A DNA stretch of 64,000 nucleotides, taken from the IMG/VR virus record IMGVR_UViG_3300031857_000014; one strand, 5' to 3'. The stretch's first letter is position 1, and every line of letters begins with the position of its first letter. Origin of the DNA: a virus (Duplodnaviria > Caudoviricetes). Below the pieces are notes generated by a model. The model was not told the DNA's origin, did not search any database, and was given only the letters and a program-made list of their open reading frames with translations. Position numbers and translations under genes: made by a program. This document shows positions 10,499-35,772 of this stretch, in pieces.

Positions 10499-10987
10499 TT
10501 AGTAAACTAAGATACATCTATCTGGTCTCATTGAACAAGTGATAGTTGCCACATCATCTCTTGAATAATCAAGATCATTAAAGTTTAAGTCAGTAATGAA
10601 TGTACCTTGAAGTATCCATTTCTCAACCACAACACCAGTTGGGTCAAGCATTTCCAATTCAATGTCTTTTTTATAACCAGCAGCATAACCCATACGACCT
10701 GTAACAGATTCAGCGTGTAAACGGAACCATTCCATTAACGCCTGTGCCGCTGAAGGACCAATTGGGTCTTTGAAAGTTACTCTCATTTCATTCCATTCAA
10801 ATCTACCAGCAACATAAGTTGATGTATTGATAAATGGAATTGCAACAGAATTGATTTTTGCACTAGGTCTAGCCGTTGATGTCACATACCACTCGTTAAT
10901 ACCCAAAGATGATGGAAATCTAAGGATGAATCGGTTTACTCTTTTCGGTTCATATGGAACCGGCATTTTCATTAATAAATCTGCCAT
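10499..10987 (-). CDS. gp19: Tail tube protein (T4 gp19-like)
   Basis: YEPKRVNRFILRF...IPFIN...AGRFEWNEMRVTFKDPI...GYKKDIELEMLDPTG...W.L.G.F; follows the sheath gene. Confidence 0.9.
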   Translation of the reverse strand: MADLLMKMPVPYEPKRVNRFILRFPSSLGINEWYVTSTARPSAKINSVAIPFINTSTYVAGRFEWNEMRVTFKDPIGPSAAQALMEWFRLHAESVTGRMGYAAGYKKDIELEMLDPTGVVVEKWILQGTFITDLNFNDLDYSRDDVATITCSMRPDRCILVY

Positions 10988-11066
10988 TTTTTAAATAATT
11001 AAGTTTTTTTGTTATCTTCCTATAAATACTACGTATTTGAGAATATTTTATTTTTTTTGAAAAATC

Positions 11067-11095
11067 TTGACTTTGTCATTTTTTTTCGTTAGTTT
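11067..11095 (+). promoter_or_regulatory. Putative sigma70-like promoter pointing into the CTAG-rich element
   Basis: TTGACT (11067-11072), 17-bp spacer, TAGTTT (11090-11095). No + strand ORF follows. Confidence 0.35.
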
Positions 11096-11100
11096 TTTAC

Positions 11101-11256
11101 TACCCAGTATCTAGGTTCCAGTATTCAGTATTAATATAACCAATTCCAGCATCTAGAATATTATATAAATACTAGAATATCTAGTTCTAGTATCTAGAAT
11201 AATAAATATAATATTATAAAACTAGTACTAGCATACTAGTTCCAGTATACTGGGTA
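11101..11256. repeat. CTAG/CCAGTAT-rich non-coding array bounded by a 10-bp inverted repeat; candidate replication origin
   Basis: Nine CTAG between 11111 and 11239, several (C)CAGTAT units, and TACCCAGTAT (11101-11110) / ATACTGGGTA (11247-11256). I found no ORF of meaningful length. Confidence 0.7.
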
Positions 11257-11261
11257 AATAG

Positions 11262-11277
11262 TGTTCCACGTGGAACT
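11262..11277. promoter_or_regulatory. parS: parS-like palindrome
   Basis: TGTTCCACGTGGAACT, a perfect 14-bp palindromic core, 15/16 identical to the parS variant TGTTCCACGTGGAACA. Confidence 0.65.
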
Positions 11278-11318
11278 ACCATATTCCCCCTTTATGTTAC
11301 CGAGTTTTTATACAAAAA

Positions 11319-11344
11319 AAATCCTCTAGTTTTCTAGAGGATTT
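11319..11344 (-). terminator. Rho-independent terminator after tail sheath gene
   Basis: 11-bp stem AAATCCTCTAG/CTAGAGGATTT, 4-nt loop, U-tract on the minus strand. Confidence 0.85.
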
Positions 11345-11364
11345 ATATTTTATTTTAATGTTGA

Positions 11365-14271
11365 TTATATATTCTCAAATGAAGCACCAGTCGGAGTTAT
11401 ATTGAATTCAATCTCAATAAATTCAAGAGACCTAGTTGGTTTTAAGTAAATCTTTCCTCTCAATGTGTTTGCATCTAAATCCTCTGGATCACTAGACACT
11501 CTTACACGGAAATCGTAAAGACCTCTTTCTTTCTTTATAGACTCAAGAATAGGATTTACTAATCTCAAGAACTCTTGTCTTACTTGTTCGTCATTTTGTT
11601 CAAATAACAACCTTACAGATACCGCAGAAATCAATTTTCTTGCTCTCAACAATAATCTTCTAACATTAATTCTATCTAATGCAGATTCTCTTAATTGAAG
11701 AGTTTTATTACCCCAAATAATTGTACCTGTATCTGAGAATGTTGCGATAGGGTTAATTCTGTTTGAATATAAGGTGTCTCTTTCATCTAATGTAAGTTTC
11801 TTATTCGCTTTAATTGATTTAACAAGACCTCTTGAATAACCTGCAACTGCGAACCAAGGATACGATACATTATCGGTTAACGCAATATTTCTAACAACTT
11901 CACCTGTAGGCGGGATGTATAATTGTGTTGCGTTGTCTGTATCTCTAACCTGTATCCACGGCCAGTATGTCGCTGAATAGTTACTATCAATTGCGGAATC
12001 GTCAATCGCAGCAACTACTTCTTCAACACCTTCAGCACCAGTGAAATTAGGAGAGTTCATAATATATAATGAATCCGCTCTATCTTCTTCAATCATTTCT
12101 ATCGCTTGGTTAACCAATGAACTATGATCGTAGAAATTAATACCTGGTGTAGCGAATACATTTATATCAACCGCTTCAGGATTTTCAAATGTTTGAATAC
12201 CTTGAAGATACGCATAATAGTCAGAATTACCATTATTAACATCAAATACACCGCCATTATTTTGATTATTTGCGTTATATGTTGGTTTACCATAAATGTA
12301 ACCATCACCATAAGTTCTAACATTTCTATAGATATCCCAACCATCAAAACCACCACCAGCAGCAAATGTAAATTTACGATATCTGATGTCAGTTAATTTA
12401 TCTCCTACTGGTTGACCCTCCAAATCGTATGGAGTTGTAATATATGTGGTACCTGAAATTGTTGATGCGTTTACAGATAAGTGGAAACCAGATGTGGATG
12501 AAGTACCTTCAGCACCTTTATATTTAAATAAATCATTATCATATCTTGAACCTGTCTGATTTGATAAACCTAAAGATACTTTTCTTACTTTATCTCCATT
12601 TGATAATACCGCGGTACCATCAGCGTCATAATACATTGTATCGCCAGCATCAAAGTATTCTGTTTTATACAAAACATTACCTAAAGTACCACCACCAAAT
12701 GTTTGATTATTTACGAATCCTTTAAAACCAGCAGGGAATGCATCAACAGGTGCGTTATCTGCTATAGATAACATAATTAACTTAGAACGTAATTCATAGT
12801 CACCATTTGATGTACCTATTTTTTTAGCGACATAACCTGGTAAATCAGGATTCATACTACATCTTGAATATTTTTCTAAAACAACAGGATTATCATCAGT
12901 ATCATAGTAATCACGAACCAATAAATCAAAATCACCATTATCCAAATTAATATTAGCTATTTGAATTTTAACTGTGTAGTTTGCACTTTCACCATCAGGT
13001 ATTGTTATAATTTCAAACAAATCTGCAACTTTACCACCTCTAACCTCTGAAACAACCATTGGTGTTATCGGAGATAACCATTGACTCATAAAGTTTTCTG
13101 ATTCTGAATTTACAACTTTTGTTAAACTTAAACCTCTAACATATCCTTTTTGAAATGCAGATTGTAAGAATTTAGGGTATGCCTCATGAACGTATATTGG
13201 ATAGTCTGTTCTTGGTTTATCAAACACATCACTTCCCAAAACTTTAGTTATGTATTTTGAAGATGTTTGATCCATGGAACAAGTGAATTGTTTTGCACCA
13301 CCTGTTGTACCCGTTACGTTAATTATAAATTCTGCTAATGGATTTGTAGTAACACCACTTAAATCATCAATATCGAAACGAGATGAAAGAAATGTTTCAA
13401 GACTTAATGTGTTTTGTTGATAGAGACCTCTACTTCTAAGTGCAGCAACTATTAAATCTTTATACTGTGTTAACTCACCTGCATCGTATTTGAATCTAGC
13501 CACATCAAAATATCCATTTTGTGCGTCATATGCAAAAAGATAAGAATAAACACCATCAACATTTCCACTACCATCAAAAGATAAAAGTTTGTTTATCCAT
13601 TCTTTACCGTTAGGACTATCATCAGTATAAAACCCATTAAGTGGGGAAACTTGTTCAATTCCAAATAAAGATGATAATTCGGTAATCGCATTACCATCCA
13701 AATCGGTAACAATATATGCACCTAAATCAGGTACTAATCCCATAGTAAACCAGTTACCATCTTCAGAAGCACCATATCCACCAAAATTTGTTTCAATGTA
13801 ATCTGTTATTGTTGTTCCTTCAAATGAGAATATATTTGAAAGTTCATTATAAAAAATACTTGATGATGGGTTAGATGGGTCCATAGAGTCCACTACTAAA
13901 CTAGTATGTGCACTTGTATCTGCGGTAACACCAGCTAATGTTTGTATACCAAATGTTGTTGTTGGTTTATATCCAGTTAAACCAAGAATTCTTGTTACGA
14001 ATAGTTGGTTTGATTCTTCTAGATACGATTTAGCAACATACGGTAATTCATATTTTGGATTATCTGCACCGTCTTTTACAGGTGTAGTACTTCCAAAGTA
14101 TACTTTGAATTCATCAAAATTGGTAATTAATATTGGTTCAAATGCGGGACCCTTCAATGTCTCACCAACCAATCCGAGTGTTGTAACACCAACACTTTGT
14201 GCTACGAATGTTAAATCTTTCTCTGAGGTATATACACCGGGAGAAACGAATACTTTGTTTGAATTTGCCAT
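11365..14271 (-). CDS. gp18: Tail sheath protein (T4 gp18-like)
   Basis: N-term FVSPGVYTSEKDL...GETLKGPAFEP; C-term SNYSATYWPW...WFAVAG.SRG...ALDRINVRRLL...PTRSLEFI.I.F. Confidence 0.95.
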   Translation of the reverse strand: MANSNKVFVSPGVYTSEKDLTFVAQSVGVTTLGLVGETLKGPAFEPILITNFDEFKVYFGSTTPVKDGADNPKYELPYVAKSYLEESNQLFVTRILGLTGYKPTTTFGIQTLAGVTADTSAHTSLVVDSMDPSNPSSSIFYNELSNIFSFEGTTITDYIETNFGGYGASEDGNWFTMGLVPDLGAYIVTDLDGNAITELSSLFGIEQVSPLNGFYTDDSPNGKEWINKLLSFDGSGNVDGVYSYLFAYDAQNGYFDVARFKYDAGELTQYKDLIVAALRSRGLYQQNTLSLETFLSSRFDIDDLSGVTTNPLAEFIINVTGTTGGAKQFTCSMDQTSSKYITKVLGSDVFDKPRTDYPIYVHEAYPKFLQSAFQKGYVRGLSLTKVVNSESENFMSQWLSPITPMVVSEVRGGKVADLFEIITIPDGESANYTVKIQIANINLDNGDFDLLVRDYYDTDDNPVVLEKYSRCSMNPDLPGYVAKKIGTSNGDYELRSKLIMLSIADNAPVDAFPAGFKGFVNNQTFGGGTLGNVLYKTEYFDAGDTMYYDADGTAVLSNGDKVRKVSLGLSNQTGSRYDNDLFKYKGAEGTSSTSGFHLSVNASTISGTTYITTPYDLEGQPVGDKLTDIRYRKFTFAAGGGFDGWDIYRNVRTYGDGYIYGKPTYNANNQNNGGVFDVNNGNSDYYAYLQGIQTFENPEAVDINVFATPGINFYDHSSLVNQAIEMIEEDRADSLYIMNSPNFTGAEGVEEVVAAIDDSAIDSNYSATYWPWIQVRDTDNATQLYIPPTGEVVRNIALTDNVSYPWFAVAGYSRGLVKSIKANKKLTLDERDTLYSNRINPIATFSDTGTIIWGNKTLQLRESALDRINVRRLLLRARKLISAVSVRLLFEQNDEQVRQEFLRLVNPILESIKKERGLYDFRVRVSSDPEDLDANTLRGKIYLKPTRSLEFIEIEFNITPTGASFENI

Positions 14272-35290: not shown

Positions 35291-35521
35291 ATGCATTATT
35301 TAGTAACTATCGGTTATGAAACCGAACAAATGGACAGAAACGGAAATCCTCGTTTACAAAAATTAAAGTACATCGTTGAAGCTGAAAGTGTTGAAGAAGC
35401 AACAATTGTTGCATCAAAATACAGAGCGGGAGACGTAAGGTCAAGTGAAAGTATTTCAATTGTTAAAATGCCAATTGAATGTATCATTGATAAAAAAAAC
35501 ACTCCGGAATATTATAAATAA
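35291..35521 (+). CDS. DUF4494-like small protein
   Basis: YLVTIGYE...KLKYIVEAESVEEA resembles the Bacteroidota DUF4494 family (recalled, not searched). Confidence 0.55.
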   Translation: MHYLVTIGYETEQMDRNGNPRLQKLKYIVEAESVEEATIVASKYRAGDVRSSESISIVKMPIECIIDKKNTPEYYK

Positions 35522-35535
35522 TAAAAAGAAACACG

Positions 35536-35772
35536 ATGCAATTCCATAGTAGAGACATTCAAATTTTACGTCAGTCACAAAGTAAAATGGTTTTAGAGTA
35601 TCTTAATTCACTTAATGTTCAAGTAACTGTAGAAGAACTACAAAGAATTACCGACATTTTTGTTGAATGCTGTTTAAGACCATCAGACGATGATTTAAAA
35701 AAAAGAATCAAATCTTTAGATAAATGGATTAATGAAAAAATAGAAGAAAAAAAATCTATACCAAATGGATAA
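35536..35772 (+). CDS. Hypothetical protein
   Basis: 78-aa ORF in the operon. Confidence 0.6.
   Translation: MQFHSRDIQILRQSQSKMVLEYLNSLNVQVTVEELQRITDIFVECCLRPSDDDLKKRIKSLDKWINEKIEEKKSIPNG

What the first reader, a model, noticed from the sequence alone, without database searches (positions are those of the whole stretch)
11067..11256. CTAG-rich, inverted-repeat-bounded non-coding element with an inward antisense promoter: candidate origin or structured RNA
This lies in the largest intergenic gap of a gene-dense window. It has nine CTAG in 129 bp (CTAG is normally scarce in bacterial and phage DNA), repeated (C)CAGTAT units, a CCAGTATACTGG palindrome and 10-bp terminal inverted repeats (11101-11110 / 11247-11256). 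A TTGACT-17-TAGTTT promoter-like sequence would start a transcript at about 11101, antisense to the tail operon. This layout fits an iteron-like or R-loop-primed origin (T4 origins are transcript-primed) or a small RNA whose ends pair.
Basis: partly seen in the sequence, partly recalled or inferred. Interest (0 to 1): 0.7.

Follow-up and report, generated by a model that had tools for sequence, protein, structure and literature searches.

The report
CTAG-laddered palindrome between sheath and tube
The gap between the tail-sheath and tail-tube genes of an uncultured freshwater jumbo phage holds a real, single-copy palindrome built from CTAG-like four-letter blocks and kept at this spot across the clade; it most resembles the hairpin-plus-late-promoter junction of T4-type phages, I found no support for an origin, and its function is untested.

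Summary
There are nine CTAG in 129 bp, against 60 in the whole 64-kb window. A 10-bp terminal inverted repeat, the CCAGTATACTGG palindrome and the TTGACT-17-TAGTTT site are all present.

The element is the only cluster of this kind in its 142-kb record and in two near-complete relatives. It sits in the same gap in 103 distinct sheath-tube gaps from related contigs, but its interior changes fast.

About two thirds of relatives can close a hairpin (CCAGTAT...ATACTGG). One third carry same-direction CTAG arrays instead. In 63 of 88 cores the phage's gene-start motif TATTTAT lies inside the element and points at the tube gene.

On the tube side, a block that reads backward as TTG-N20-TA(G/T)TTTTT keeps an invariant 20-nt spacer. 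It lacks the near-invariant G of host-type promoters and occurs once per genome.

GC skew follows gene direction and does not turn at the element. No RNA data were available.

Best reading (about 0.4): a clade-specific, enlarged version of the T4 gene 18-19 "hairpin + late promoter" junction. A backward small RNA gene, a protein-binding array linked to the neighbouring parS, and an origin all remain open.

This scan noted hairpins with backward promoters at this junction before, in T4-like phages.

The parts
11365..14271 (-). Tail sheath gene (968 aa), upstream neighbour
   Evidence: phrog_23 tail sheath, E = 1e-61.
11319..11344 (.). Two-way intrinsic terminator: an 11-bp stem with a T-run on both strands
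   Evidence: Found on both strands. 0.1 such sites are expected in shuffles. A G+C-rich hairpin with an A-rich run before it and a T-rich run after it stands at this place in most relatives printed (my G/C-run pattern matched 76 of 103 distinct gaps).
11262..11277 (.). parS-like palindrome TGTTCCACGTGGAACT
   Evidence: Read directly. A parS-like 16-mer is present in 75 of 103 distinct gaps, 8-142 nt from the element, and its two central bases vary. Earlier scan note e1-5336025 covers it.
11101..11256 (.). Core element: a 156-nt ladder of C-Y-R-G tetramers (9 CTAG, 5 CCAG/CTGG) with A/T spacers, closed by the 10-bp inverted repeat 11101-11110 / 11247-11256
   Evidence: Single copy in the genome.
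11242..11253 (.). 12-bp palindrome CCAGTATACTGG (tetramers T1-T2 in tail-gene orientation)
   Evidence: Read directly. It recurs as CCAG-(T/A)ATA-CT(G/A)G in relatives.
11164..11174 (-). Internal late-promoter-like motif TAGTATTTATA, pointing toward the tube gene, 184 nt upstream of the tube ATG
   Evidence: Exact 11-mer repeat of the proximal copy (D6). TATTTAT lies inside the core in sense orientation in 63 of 88 relatives, against 9.4 expected, and in antisense orientation in 4.
11067..11097 (+). Conserved block that reads backward as TTG-N20-TAGTTTTT.
   Evidence: The spacer is exactly 20 nt in 88 of 103 distinct gaps, plus the window by direct reading. The block is highly conserved and occurs once per genome. 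It lacks the G at -5 of host-type promoters.
11021..11031 (-). Proximal late-promoter-like motif TAGTATTTATA, 41 nt upstream of the tube ATG
   Evidence: A proximal TATTTAT[AT] is present in 103 of 103 distinct gaps. The same motif lies 11-59 nt upstream of many gene starts, in sense orientation.
10499..10987 (-). Tail tube gene (162 aa), downstream neighbour
   Evidence: phrog_4542 tail tube, E = 1e-25.

Best explanation
This is a clade-specific, enlarged version of the control junction that T4-type phages keep between the tail-sheath (gene 18) and tail-tube (gene 19) genes.

In T4 that junction reads 'hairpin, then late promoter', twice over. Here the order in tail-gene direction is:
1. sheath stop codon;
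2. a two-way terminator;
3. a parS-like palindrome;
4. a long, dyad-like ladder of C-Y-R-G tetramers (CCAG, CTAG, CTGG) separated by short A/T spacers;
5. a conserved A-tract/TTGACA block;
6. the tube gene's own TATTTATA motif.

The CTAG richness is a by-product of using self-complementary or wobble-complementary tetramers as the rungs of the ladder. Relatives with no CTAG keep the ladder with other complementary tetramers.

Proposed mechanism (inferred, not shown):
- RNA polymerase that reads through the sheath terminator copies the ladder into an 80-160-nt hairpin, which ends, protects or marks that RNA.
- Late transcription restarts at the TATTTAT motif in the hairpin's apical part and again at the proximal copy, feeding the tube gene and the co-directional tail genes that follow.
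- The adjoining block is either a weak, non-canonical backward promoter or a protein-binding site.

Shown: the anatomy, the single-copy status, conservation of position and layout, enrichment and orientation of TATTTAT, and the fixed spacer. Inferred: that these RNAs are made, that they fold, and what that achieves.
For: Position and layout match T4. T4's own 116-nt gene 18-19 gap holds two hairpins, each followed by TATAAATA. Here the 11-mer TAGTATTTATA occurs twice, inside the element and 41 nt before the tube ATG (D6).

TATTTATA is a gene-start signal in this phage. It lies in sense orientation 11-59 nt upstream of many gene starts. It is enriched inside the element in tail-gene orientation: 63 of 88 cores against 9.4 expected, with only 4 in antisense orientation.

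The hairpin layout is widespread.
- Of 103 distinct gaps, 89 carry the left CCAG[TA]AT, 71 the inverted right partner, and 69 both.
- The tetramer spacing is mirrored between the two arms: TATA, AA | AA, ATA.
- The window's element folds at z = -6.8 on the tail-gene strand. The mean over 88 relatives is -2.3.

Some compensatory changes exist.
- CCCAGTA/TACTGGG becomes CCCGGTA/TACCGGG in L059 and L062.
- An inner CTAG:CTAG rung becomes GCAA:TTGC in L059 and L062 and in L175-L179.
- CCAG:CTGG alternates with CTAG:CTGG.

Wobble favours tail-sense RNA. In 53 distinct elements with the seven-tetramer layout, counted over the 12 distinct tetramer combinations, rungs T2:T6 and T3:T5 show 21 G:U against 2 A:C (19 against 2).

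The element belongs to this clade's junction. It is absent from the short sheath-tube gaps of distant relatives, 45 and 94 nt.
Against: - No transcript data exist (see Tried and rejected).
- A strong terminator lies upstream, so only read-through RNA would contain both arms.
- About a third of relatives (34 of 103) have same-direction CTAG arrays with no inverted right end. Most of them, including the L002-L029 group, also lack the internal TATTTAT, and a hairpin explains these poorly.
- Much of the 'stem' is conserved sequence rather than covarying pairs. The AA/AA spacers never become AA/UU. CCAGAAT faces ATACTGG with an uncompensated A.A. The pair flanking the closing stem is random: C:A 19, C:G 15, T:G 15, T:A 4.
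- Against dinucleotide shuffles the strand difference is small: z = -2.3 against -2.0, and the sequences are related. A cruder mismatch count gave 8 G:U against 5 A:C.
- The element plus block stays together when mobile genes separate it from the sheath terminator (L009, L051, L052, L055) or from the tube promoter by 1.7-2 kb (L030, L268). This suggests a self-contained module rather than a simple leader or trailer.
Confidence: 0.4

Rival explanations
1. A self-contained backward small-RNA gene. A promoter at 11067-11097 (+ strand) starts RNA at about 11101-11103, exactly at the foot of the palindrome. The roughly 250-nt RNA would carry a 5' hairpin, then the parS-like hairpin, and would end at the two-way terminator (11319-11344) before it can run antisense into the sheath gene.
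For: - TTG-N20-TA(G/T)TTTTT has an invariant 20-nt spacer in 88 of 103 distinct gaps, plus the window by direct reading, and the block is among the best-conserved parts of the gap.
- The box abuts the hairpin foot within 0-8 nt in relatives.
- The terminator works on both strands in the window, and A-rich runs precede the terminator stem in the relatives printed.
- The + strand RNA also folds well (z = -5.35).
- The element and block stay linked when genes are inserted on either side.
- Backward promoters at this junction were noted before in T4-like phages.
Against: - The box lacks the G at -5 and, in 54 of the 88 gaps scored, has a G at -10. In Flavobacterium johnsoniae promoters G at -5 is nearly invariant and G at -10 is virtually absent (PMC6847099).
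- The complete relative holds 44 intergenic sites that match the canonical pattern TTG-N19-21-TAHHTTTG. The block occurs once per genome and belongs to no promoter class.
- It fails a sigma-70 scan.
- The wobble pattern favours the opposite strand.
- There is no Rfam match.
- In L004, L019 and L030 the block has decayed.
Confidence: 0.2
2. A DNA site for a sequence-specific protein: an operator-like or centromere-like array of ATACTRG/CYAGTAT heptamers in variable number and orientation. It may work together with the neighbouring parS and host ParB. On this reading the hairpin potential is a side effect of inverted sites.
For: - The motif itself, not only its pairing, is conserved. CCAG[TA]AT occurs in 89 of 103 gaps.
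- Identical 14-mers (ACTGGAACTAGATA) stand in direct orientation in both arms.
- Arrays grow by tandem duplication (L060, L019), and some are flipped (L004, L019, L064).
- One third of relatives have only same-direction arrays.
- The site is single-copy.
- CTRGAAC resembles a parS half-site (ACGTGGAAC). It co-occurs with parS with an odds ratio of 10.8, not corrected for relatedness.
Against: - No candidate binding protein was found: there is no Trp-repressor-like gene, and NusG is present only in this genome.
- The tetramers can be replaced by unrelated complementary ones (GCAA:TTGC), and some relatives have no CTAG at all.
- Site spacing is irregular.
- The parS link rests on a few clades, and parS-free lineages keep the hairpin.
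Confidence: 0.15
3. A replication origin of the T4 oriF/oriG type (a promoter plus an easily unwound A+T-rich stretch, primed by an R-loop) or of the oriE type (short direct repeats). Cruciform formation may aid opening.
For: - The locus is unique and conserved, with a promoter-like block pointing into a 75% A+T, repeat-rich stretch.
- T4 oriF and oriG are about 100 bp each: a promoter plus an A+T-rich unwinding element of no fixed sequence. oriG lies in a tail-fibre gene, and oriE carries short direct repeats (PMC3016281).
- The fast-changing interior fits an unwinding element.
- The element lies about 5 kb from a switch in transcription direction. The more active T4 origins lie near such switches.
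- parS sites lie near origins in bacteria (established knowledge).
Against: - There is no GC-skew turn at the element.
- The stretch is no more A+T-rich than other gaps, which run 15-30% G+C.
- The repeats are 4-7 nt, not iteron-sized.
- The promoter is non-canonical.
- The conserved tetramers and mirrored spacing are not needed for an unwinding element.
- There is no replication gene nearby.
Confidence: 0.12
4. An invertible promoter switch, or a miniature mobile element bounded by the 10-bp inverted repeats.
For: - Inverted repeats flank a promoter-like motif.
- In a few relatives the array lies in the opposite orientation (L004, L019, L064, L268).
Against: - The element is single-copy in three genomes and always at the same site: 72 of 80 motif hits have the tube gene just downstream, 6 are cut by the contig end, 1 is inverted at the same site and 1 is a chance match inside a coding region.
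- Contigs of four metagenomes showed no strand-changing joints.
- The repeats are only 8-10 bp.
- Switching an essential tube gene on and off makes little sense, because the tube gene keeps its own promoter.
Confidence: 0.03

Closest known systems
Gene 18-19 (sheath-tube) intergenic junction of phage T4 and T4-type phages
   Same: - Same position between sheath and tube homologues.
- Hairpin(s) followed by the phage's late-promoter box, present twice (T4; here).
- The same gap is a hot spot for inserted homing-nuclease-like genes and other accessory genes.
- Backward-pointing promoters at this junction were reported by earlier notes of this scan.
   Different: - The gap is three times longer (377 against 116 nt).
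- The hairpin is an 80-160-nt A/T-rich ladder of C-Y-R-G tetramers, with the promoter box in its apical part rather than after a short G+C hairpin.
- The box is TATTTATA, not TATAAATA.
- A parS-like site and a unique conserved block are added.
- There is no sequence homology, and no phage record matches at DNA level.
PeSL promoter/stem-loop cassettes of T4-type phages (Arbiol et al. 2010, PMC2839356; Comeau et al. 2014, PMC4122927)
   Same: A small non-coding cassette that joins a promoter to a stem-loop, placed between genes where accessory genes are shuffled in and out.
   Different: PeSLs are many-copy, strong sigma-70-like early promoters with terminator stem-loops in hyperplastic regions. 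This element is single-copy, sits between core late genes, and its backward promoter-like box is non-canonical.
T4 replication origins oriF/oriG (promoter + A+T-rich unwinding element, R-loop primed) and oriE (12-nt direct repeats) (Kreuzer & Brister 2010, PMC3016281)
   Same: A promoter-like site pointing into an A+T-rich, poorly conserved stretch. The location inside a late-gene region is allowed, since oriG lies in gene 34. Short repeats occur at oriE.
   Different: Nothing replication-related was shown here. There is no skew turn. The promoter class is unknown. The interior has conserved tetramers and mirrored spacing, which unwinding elements do not need.
Clusters of a palindromic tetramer at unique DNA sites: GATC clusters in E. 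coli oriC and in the phage P1 pac site (my own knowledge, not checked here)
   Same: Many copies of one palindromic 4-mer are packed into 130-250 bp at a single site, in a genome where the 4-mer is otherwise not enriched. A Dam-class methyltransferase gene is conserved in this clade.
   Different: The tetramer is CTAG, not GATC. The specificity of the phage methyltransferase is unknown. Some relatives keep the element with no CTAG at all, which argues against a methylation-site function.

Membership tests
T4-type sheath-tube junction (hairpin + late promoter) | Lies between homologues of the tail sheath and tail tube genes, on their strand | tested here: met
   phrog_23 sheath and phrog_4542 tube flank the gap. 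The same holds in all related loci.
T4-type sheath-tube junction (hairpin + late promoter) | Hairpin-forming inverted repeat upstream of the tube gene's late-promoter box | tested here: met
   Folding z = -6.8. A closing inverted repeat is present in 69 of 103 distinct gaps, and a proximal TATTTAT[AT] in 103 of 103.
T4-type sheath-tube junction (hairpin + late promoter) | The box is a true late promoter used by the phage's late transcription machinery | not testable with these tools
   The only evidence is positional: the motif lies 11-59 nt upstream of many gene starts in sense orientation. No RNA data exist.
R-loop-primed origin (T4 oriF/oriG type) | Early or middle promoter whose transcript enters an A+T-rich unwinding element | tested here: inconclusive
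   The block is conserved with a fixed spacer, but its box departs from the host consensus at -5 and -10. A+T content is not exceptional among the genome's gaps.
R-loop-primed origin (T4 oriF/oriG type) | Replication starts there (nascent DNA, copy-number peak or compositional turn) | tested here: not met
   Only composition could be tested. GC skew follows gene strand and shows no turn at the element. This is a weak criterion for phages. Copy-number mapping was not possible.
Iteron origin | Three or more direct repeats of about 12-22 bp that bind an initiator, usually next to its gene | tested here: not met
   The repeat units are 4-7 nt with irregular spacing and mixed orientation. The neighbouring genes are sheath and tube.
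Known RNA families (Rfam 15) | Match to a curated covariance model | tested here: not met
   Nothing near a gathering score was found. The best matches have E = 0.26-3.7 and are unrelated families.
PeSL cassettes | Many near-identical copies per genome in hyperplastic regions | tested here: not met
   There is one copy in the 142-kb record and one in each of two near-complete relatives.
Miniature inverted-repeat mobile element | Several copies at different sites, with empty sites in relatives | tested here: not met
   Single-copy. The motif is tied to the sheath-tube gap: 72 of 80 fetched loci have the tube gene just downstream, 6 are cut by the contig end, 1 is inverted at the same site and 1 is a chance match.
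Invertible promoter (inverton) | Both orientations present within one population | tested here: inconclusive
   Contigs of four metagenomes showed no strand-changing joint, but contigs drop rare variants.

The most novel reading that the evidence does not exclude
The palindrome, its backward promoter-like block and the adjacent host-type parS may together form a self-contained 'origin plus centromere' module, as on a bacterial chromosome, placed inside the tail-gene cluster of a lytic-looking jumbo phage. On this reading a short backward transcript or a cruciform opens the A+T-rich ladder to start replication (or to make a recombination-priming break), and host ParB loaded next door positions or protects the phage DNA.
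Probability: 0.12. Interest if true: 0.75.

Novelty: new variant of a known kind. Interest (0 to 1): 0.45.

Why it matters
These freshwater phages of roughly 290-330 kb are abundant. More than 590 contigs carry this tube gene. The host is probably Bacteroidota, going by earlier scan notes and by the 44 host-type promoters in a complete relative. No member has been cultured.

Their one and only CTAG cluster, in a genome that otherwise avoids CTAG, marks a unique cis-acting site that every member keeps while rewriting its interior.

If it is an RNA hairpin and promoter junction, it extends the T4 'hairpin + late promoter' logic to a distant clade. It also gives a handle on late transcription signals (TATTTATA) in phages of Bacteroidota.

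If it is instead a backward RNA gene, a ParB-linked array or an origin, it would be the first cis element of that kind defined for this group. It would also explain why a host-type parS sits between two tail genes.

Either way it is a compact fragment of about 300 bp that can be tested directly.

Tried and rejected
- DNA similarity to 50,697 phage records: no match. Protein-level relatives are 42% identical at most and have short sheath-tube gaps.
- Rfam: no meaningful match.
- RNA evidence: no RNA holder was listed in either search of public runs.
- DNA runs: laying contigs of four DNA runs showed the window's gap as one identical contig per run and no strand-changing joints. This says nothing about rare variants.
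- RNAalifold on a 46-sequence MAFFT alignment returned only the 4-bp CCAG:CUGG stem, because the arms and loops align poorly. I counted pairs by parsing the tetramers instead.
- Specialised NusG recruitment site: rejected. A NusG-like gene is present in this record but in neither near-complete relative that keeps the element.
- Trp-repressor-like CTAG binder: none is encoded.
- Methylation-site cluster: a Dam-class methyltransferase is conserved, other methyltransferases are variable, and their specificity is unknown. Relatives with no CTAG argue against this idea.
- The block as a member of a promoter class: no other copies were found.
- Long-range pairing of the 3' arm (GGAAC) with GGUUCC in the tube coding start appeared in one minimum-energy fold, at very low ensemble frequency. 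It is only 6 nt, so I did not pursue it.
- Antisense genes in relatives as proof of the backward promoter: rejected, because the L051 insert has its own TATTTATA directly before its ATG.
- The bS21-phage paper, which probably covers this clade, says nothing on origins or on this gap.

Full report
**What is there.** The window is the reverse strand of bases 15742-79741 of a 141,857-base IMG/VR virus record, estimated at 43% complete. The finding lies in the 377-nt gap (10988-11364) between a tail sheath gene (11365-14271, minus strand) and a tail tube gene (10499-10987, minus strand).

- nine CTAG between 11111 and 11239, against 60 in the whole window and 109 expected from shuffles;
- the exact 10-bp inverted repeat 11101-11110 / 11247-11256, which has no other exact copy in the window;
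- the palindrome CCAGTATACTGG at 11242-11253;
- (C)CAGTAT-type repeats;
- TTGACT-17-TAGTTT at 11067-11095.

The stretch folds much better than shuffled versions on both strands: z = -6.8 on the tail-gene strand and -5.35 on the + strand. No Rfam family matches, and no phage record matches at DNA level.

**The element is unique in the genome.** In the 142-kb record this is the only non-coding gap of 150 nt or more that holds any CTAG, CCAG or CTGG. It has 11 + 5, and the other gaps have none. In a 92%-complete relative (288 kb) and a complete one (310.5 kb), a CTAG-cluster pattern hits only the sheath-tube gap. The densest CTAG windows of the complete genome are all there too.

**Relatives.** From 211 fetched loci I extracted 103 distinct sheath-tube gaps, mostly 250-420 nt. 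Distant cultured relatives have short gaps: 45 nt in Flavobacterium phage immuto and 94 nt in Microcystis phage Mel-JY01. The module is therefore specific to this uncultured clade.

In tail-gene orientation the layout is conserved:
1. sheath stop codon;
2. a G+C hairpin terminator flanked by an A-run and a T-run;
3. a parS-like palindrome, in 75 of 103 gaps;
4. an A/T spacer;
5. CCAG(T/A)AT, in 89 of 103;
6. a variable core with 0-11 CTAG;
7. ATACTGG, in 71 of 103;
8. the block A6-(C)TACG-A5...TTGACA...TCAAG;
9. about 40 nt of spacer;
10. ATATTTATAAG, in 103 of 103;
11. about 30 nt, then the tube ATG.

The flanking proteins are 86-96% identical, while the core is almost unalignable between subgroups.

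**Two forms of the core.** In 69 of 103 gaps the two ends are inverted and can close a hairpin. In 34 there is no inverted right end, and most of these carry same-direction arrays with more CTAG (median 7 against 3). The window's element is an expanded hybrid of the two forms.

In the best-defined hairpin subgroup (53 distinct sequences) seven tetramers stand in mirrored spacing: CCAG-(T/A)ATA-CTRG-AA-CYRG-...-CTRG-TATTTAT-[A/T loop]-CTGG-AA-CTRG-(W)ATA-CTGG.

Some arrays have grown by tandem duplication (30-nt periods in L060 and L019), and a few are flipped (L004, L019, L064, L268).

**Is it a structure or a motif?**

For a structure:
- The arm spacing is mirrored.
- Mean folding z is -2.3 over 88 relatives.
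- There are a few clear compensatory changes. CCCAGTA/TACTGGG becomes CCCGGTA/TACCGGG. An inner CTAG:CTAG rung is replaced by GCAA:TTGC in L059 and L062 and in L175-L179.
- Relatives with no CTAG at all keep a ladder.

For a motif:
- The closing heptamers are conserved in sequence.
- Identical 14-mers stand in direct orientation in both arms.
- The AA/AA spacers are never compensated.
- CCAGAAT faces ATACTGG with an uncompensated mismatch.
- The pair just outside the stem is random.
- One third of relatives have only same-direction arrays.

I therefore treat the hairpin as likely but not proven.

**Which strand?** Counted over the 12 distinct tetramer combinations of the seven-tetramer subgroup, rungs T2:T6 and T3:T5 show 21 G:U against 2 A:C when read on the tail-gene strand. 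The frequent A/G flips always face U. These would be C.A mismatches in + strand RNA.

Raw folding energies also favour the tail-gene strand (67 against 18), but so do the shuffles, and the z difference is small. A cruder mismatch count gave 8 against 5. The evidence leans to tail-sense RNA but does not settle it.

**Promoter-like signals.** TATTTATA lies 11-59 nt upstream of many gene starts in sense orientation.

The same 11-mer, TAGTATTTATA, occurs 41 nt before the tube ATG and again in the middle of the element, pointing at the tube gene (D6). TATTTAT lies inside the core in sense orientation in 63 of 88 relatives, against 9.4 expected from shuffles, and in antisense orientation in only 4. 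It is usually preceded by CTAG.

T4's own gene 18-19 gap reads 'hairpin, TATAAATA' twice. Earlier notes of this scan describe hairpins with a late promoter and a backward middle promoter at this junction in several T4-like phages. This is the closest known layout.

**The backward site.** Read on the + strand, the conserved block is TTG-N20-TA(G/T)TTTTT. The spacer is exactly 20 nt in 88 of 103 distinct gaps, and in the window by direct reading.

This is too regular for chance, but it is not a standard promoter:
- It fails a sigma-70 scan.
- The Bacteroidota consensus is TTTG / TAHHTTTG, with G at -5 nearly invariant and G at -10 virtually absent (PMC6847099). The complete relative holds 44 intergenic sites that match the canonical pattern, mostly about 20 nt before start codons.
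- The block ends in T, and in 54 of the 88 gaps scored it has G at the third position.
- It occurs once per genome.

It could be a weak or specially recognised promoter, or a protein site.

A two-way terminator (11319-11344) would stop a backward transcript after about 250 nt.

**Origin?** GC skew follows gene orientation in the 142-kb record and in the complete 310-kb relative, and does not turn at the element. The element lies about 5 kb from a region where transcription direction switches.

T4 origins are a promoter plus an A+T-rich stretch of no fixed sequence, can lie in late genes, and tend to lie near such switches (PMC3016281). An origin is therefore not excluded, but nothing positive supports it. 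The stretch is not unusually A+T-rich for this genome.

**Autonomy of the module.** In some relatives extra genes sit in this gap: L,D-transpeptidase accessory genes, zinc-ribbon proteins and restriction-endonuclease-like proteins. They sit either between the sheath gene and parS/element, or between the block and the tube promoter (L030, L268). In both cases the element and block stay together. This argues that they form one unit whose function does not need direct contact with either neighbouring gene. It is the main reason I keep the rival readings at substantial weight.

**Verdict.** The best-supported reading is a clade-specific, enlarged T4-type sheath-tube junction: a hairpin ladder carrying an upstream late promoter, next to a unique backward promoter-like block (confidence 0.4). 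The rivals are:
- a backward small RNA gene (0.2);
- a protein-binding array, perhaps tied to parS (0.15);
- an origin (0.12);
- an inverton or mobile element (0.03).

Caveats:
- The sequences are related, so counts are not independent events.
- My ORF calling was crude.
- No expression or replication data were available.

Noticed in passing
window 11262-11277 and the same place in related loci: The parS-like 16-mer is present in 75 of 103 distinct gaps. Its two central bases vary freely (CACGTG, CACATG, CACAAG, CACGAG, CACGCG, CACGGG), while the GTTCC/GGAAC arms stay complementary or wobble. One whole subgroup (for example L046-L073 and L175-L179) lacks the 16-mer but keeps the palindrome.
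   Followed up: partly
window 10945-10963 (tube codons 9-15): A 6-7-bp hairpin, CGGTTC...GAACCG, lies in the first 45 nt of the tube coding sequence. Synonymous variation is strongly reduced in codons 1-10: 0.39 bits against about 1.0 elsewhere. The rare codon CCG is kept at Pro9 in 109 of 111 distinct genes. Metagenome contigs from many strains pile up on just this stretch.
   Followed up: partly
L051, L052, L055, L030, L009, L086, L092, L268 (sheath-tube gap of relatives): The same gap is an insertion hot spot. The inserts are YkuD L,D-transpeptidase genes on the opposite strand, a zinc-ribbon protein, two large REase_MTES_1575-like proteins (one with a Mom-like C-terminal part), and small unknown ORFs.
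   Followed up: partly
whole window and G002: CTAG is strongly avoided genome-wide: 60 against 109 expected in the window, and 176 in 310.5 kb of the complete relative. The sheath-tube gap is the one place that concentrates it.
   Followed up: partly
G002:C1, about 235-260 kb and scattered: The complete relative has at least 44 intergenic matches to the Bacteroidota promoter consensus TTG-N19-21-TAHHTTTG, most ending about 20 nt before a start codon. This fits a Bacteroidota host and marks the early-gene regions.
   Followed up: no
G000:C1:135103-135837 and 135964-136272: A Dam-class (D12) adenine methyltransferase gene is conserved in this record and in both near-complete relatives. A NusG-like gene right beside it in this record is not detectable in either relative.
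   Followed up: no
window 35291-35772: The only larger apparent gap in the window holds two + strand ORFs of 76 and 78 codons and has no Rfam match.
   Followed up: partly
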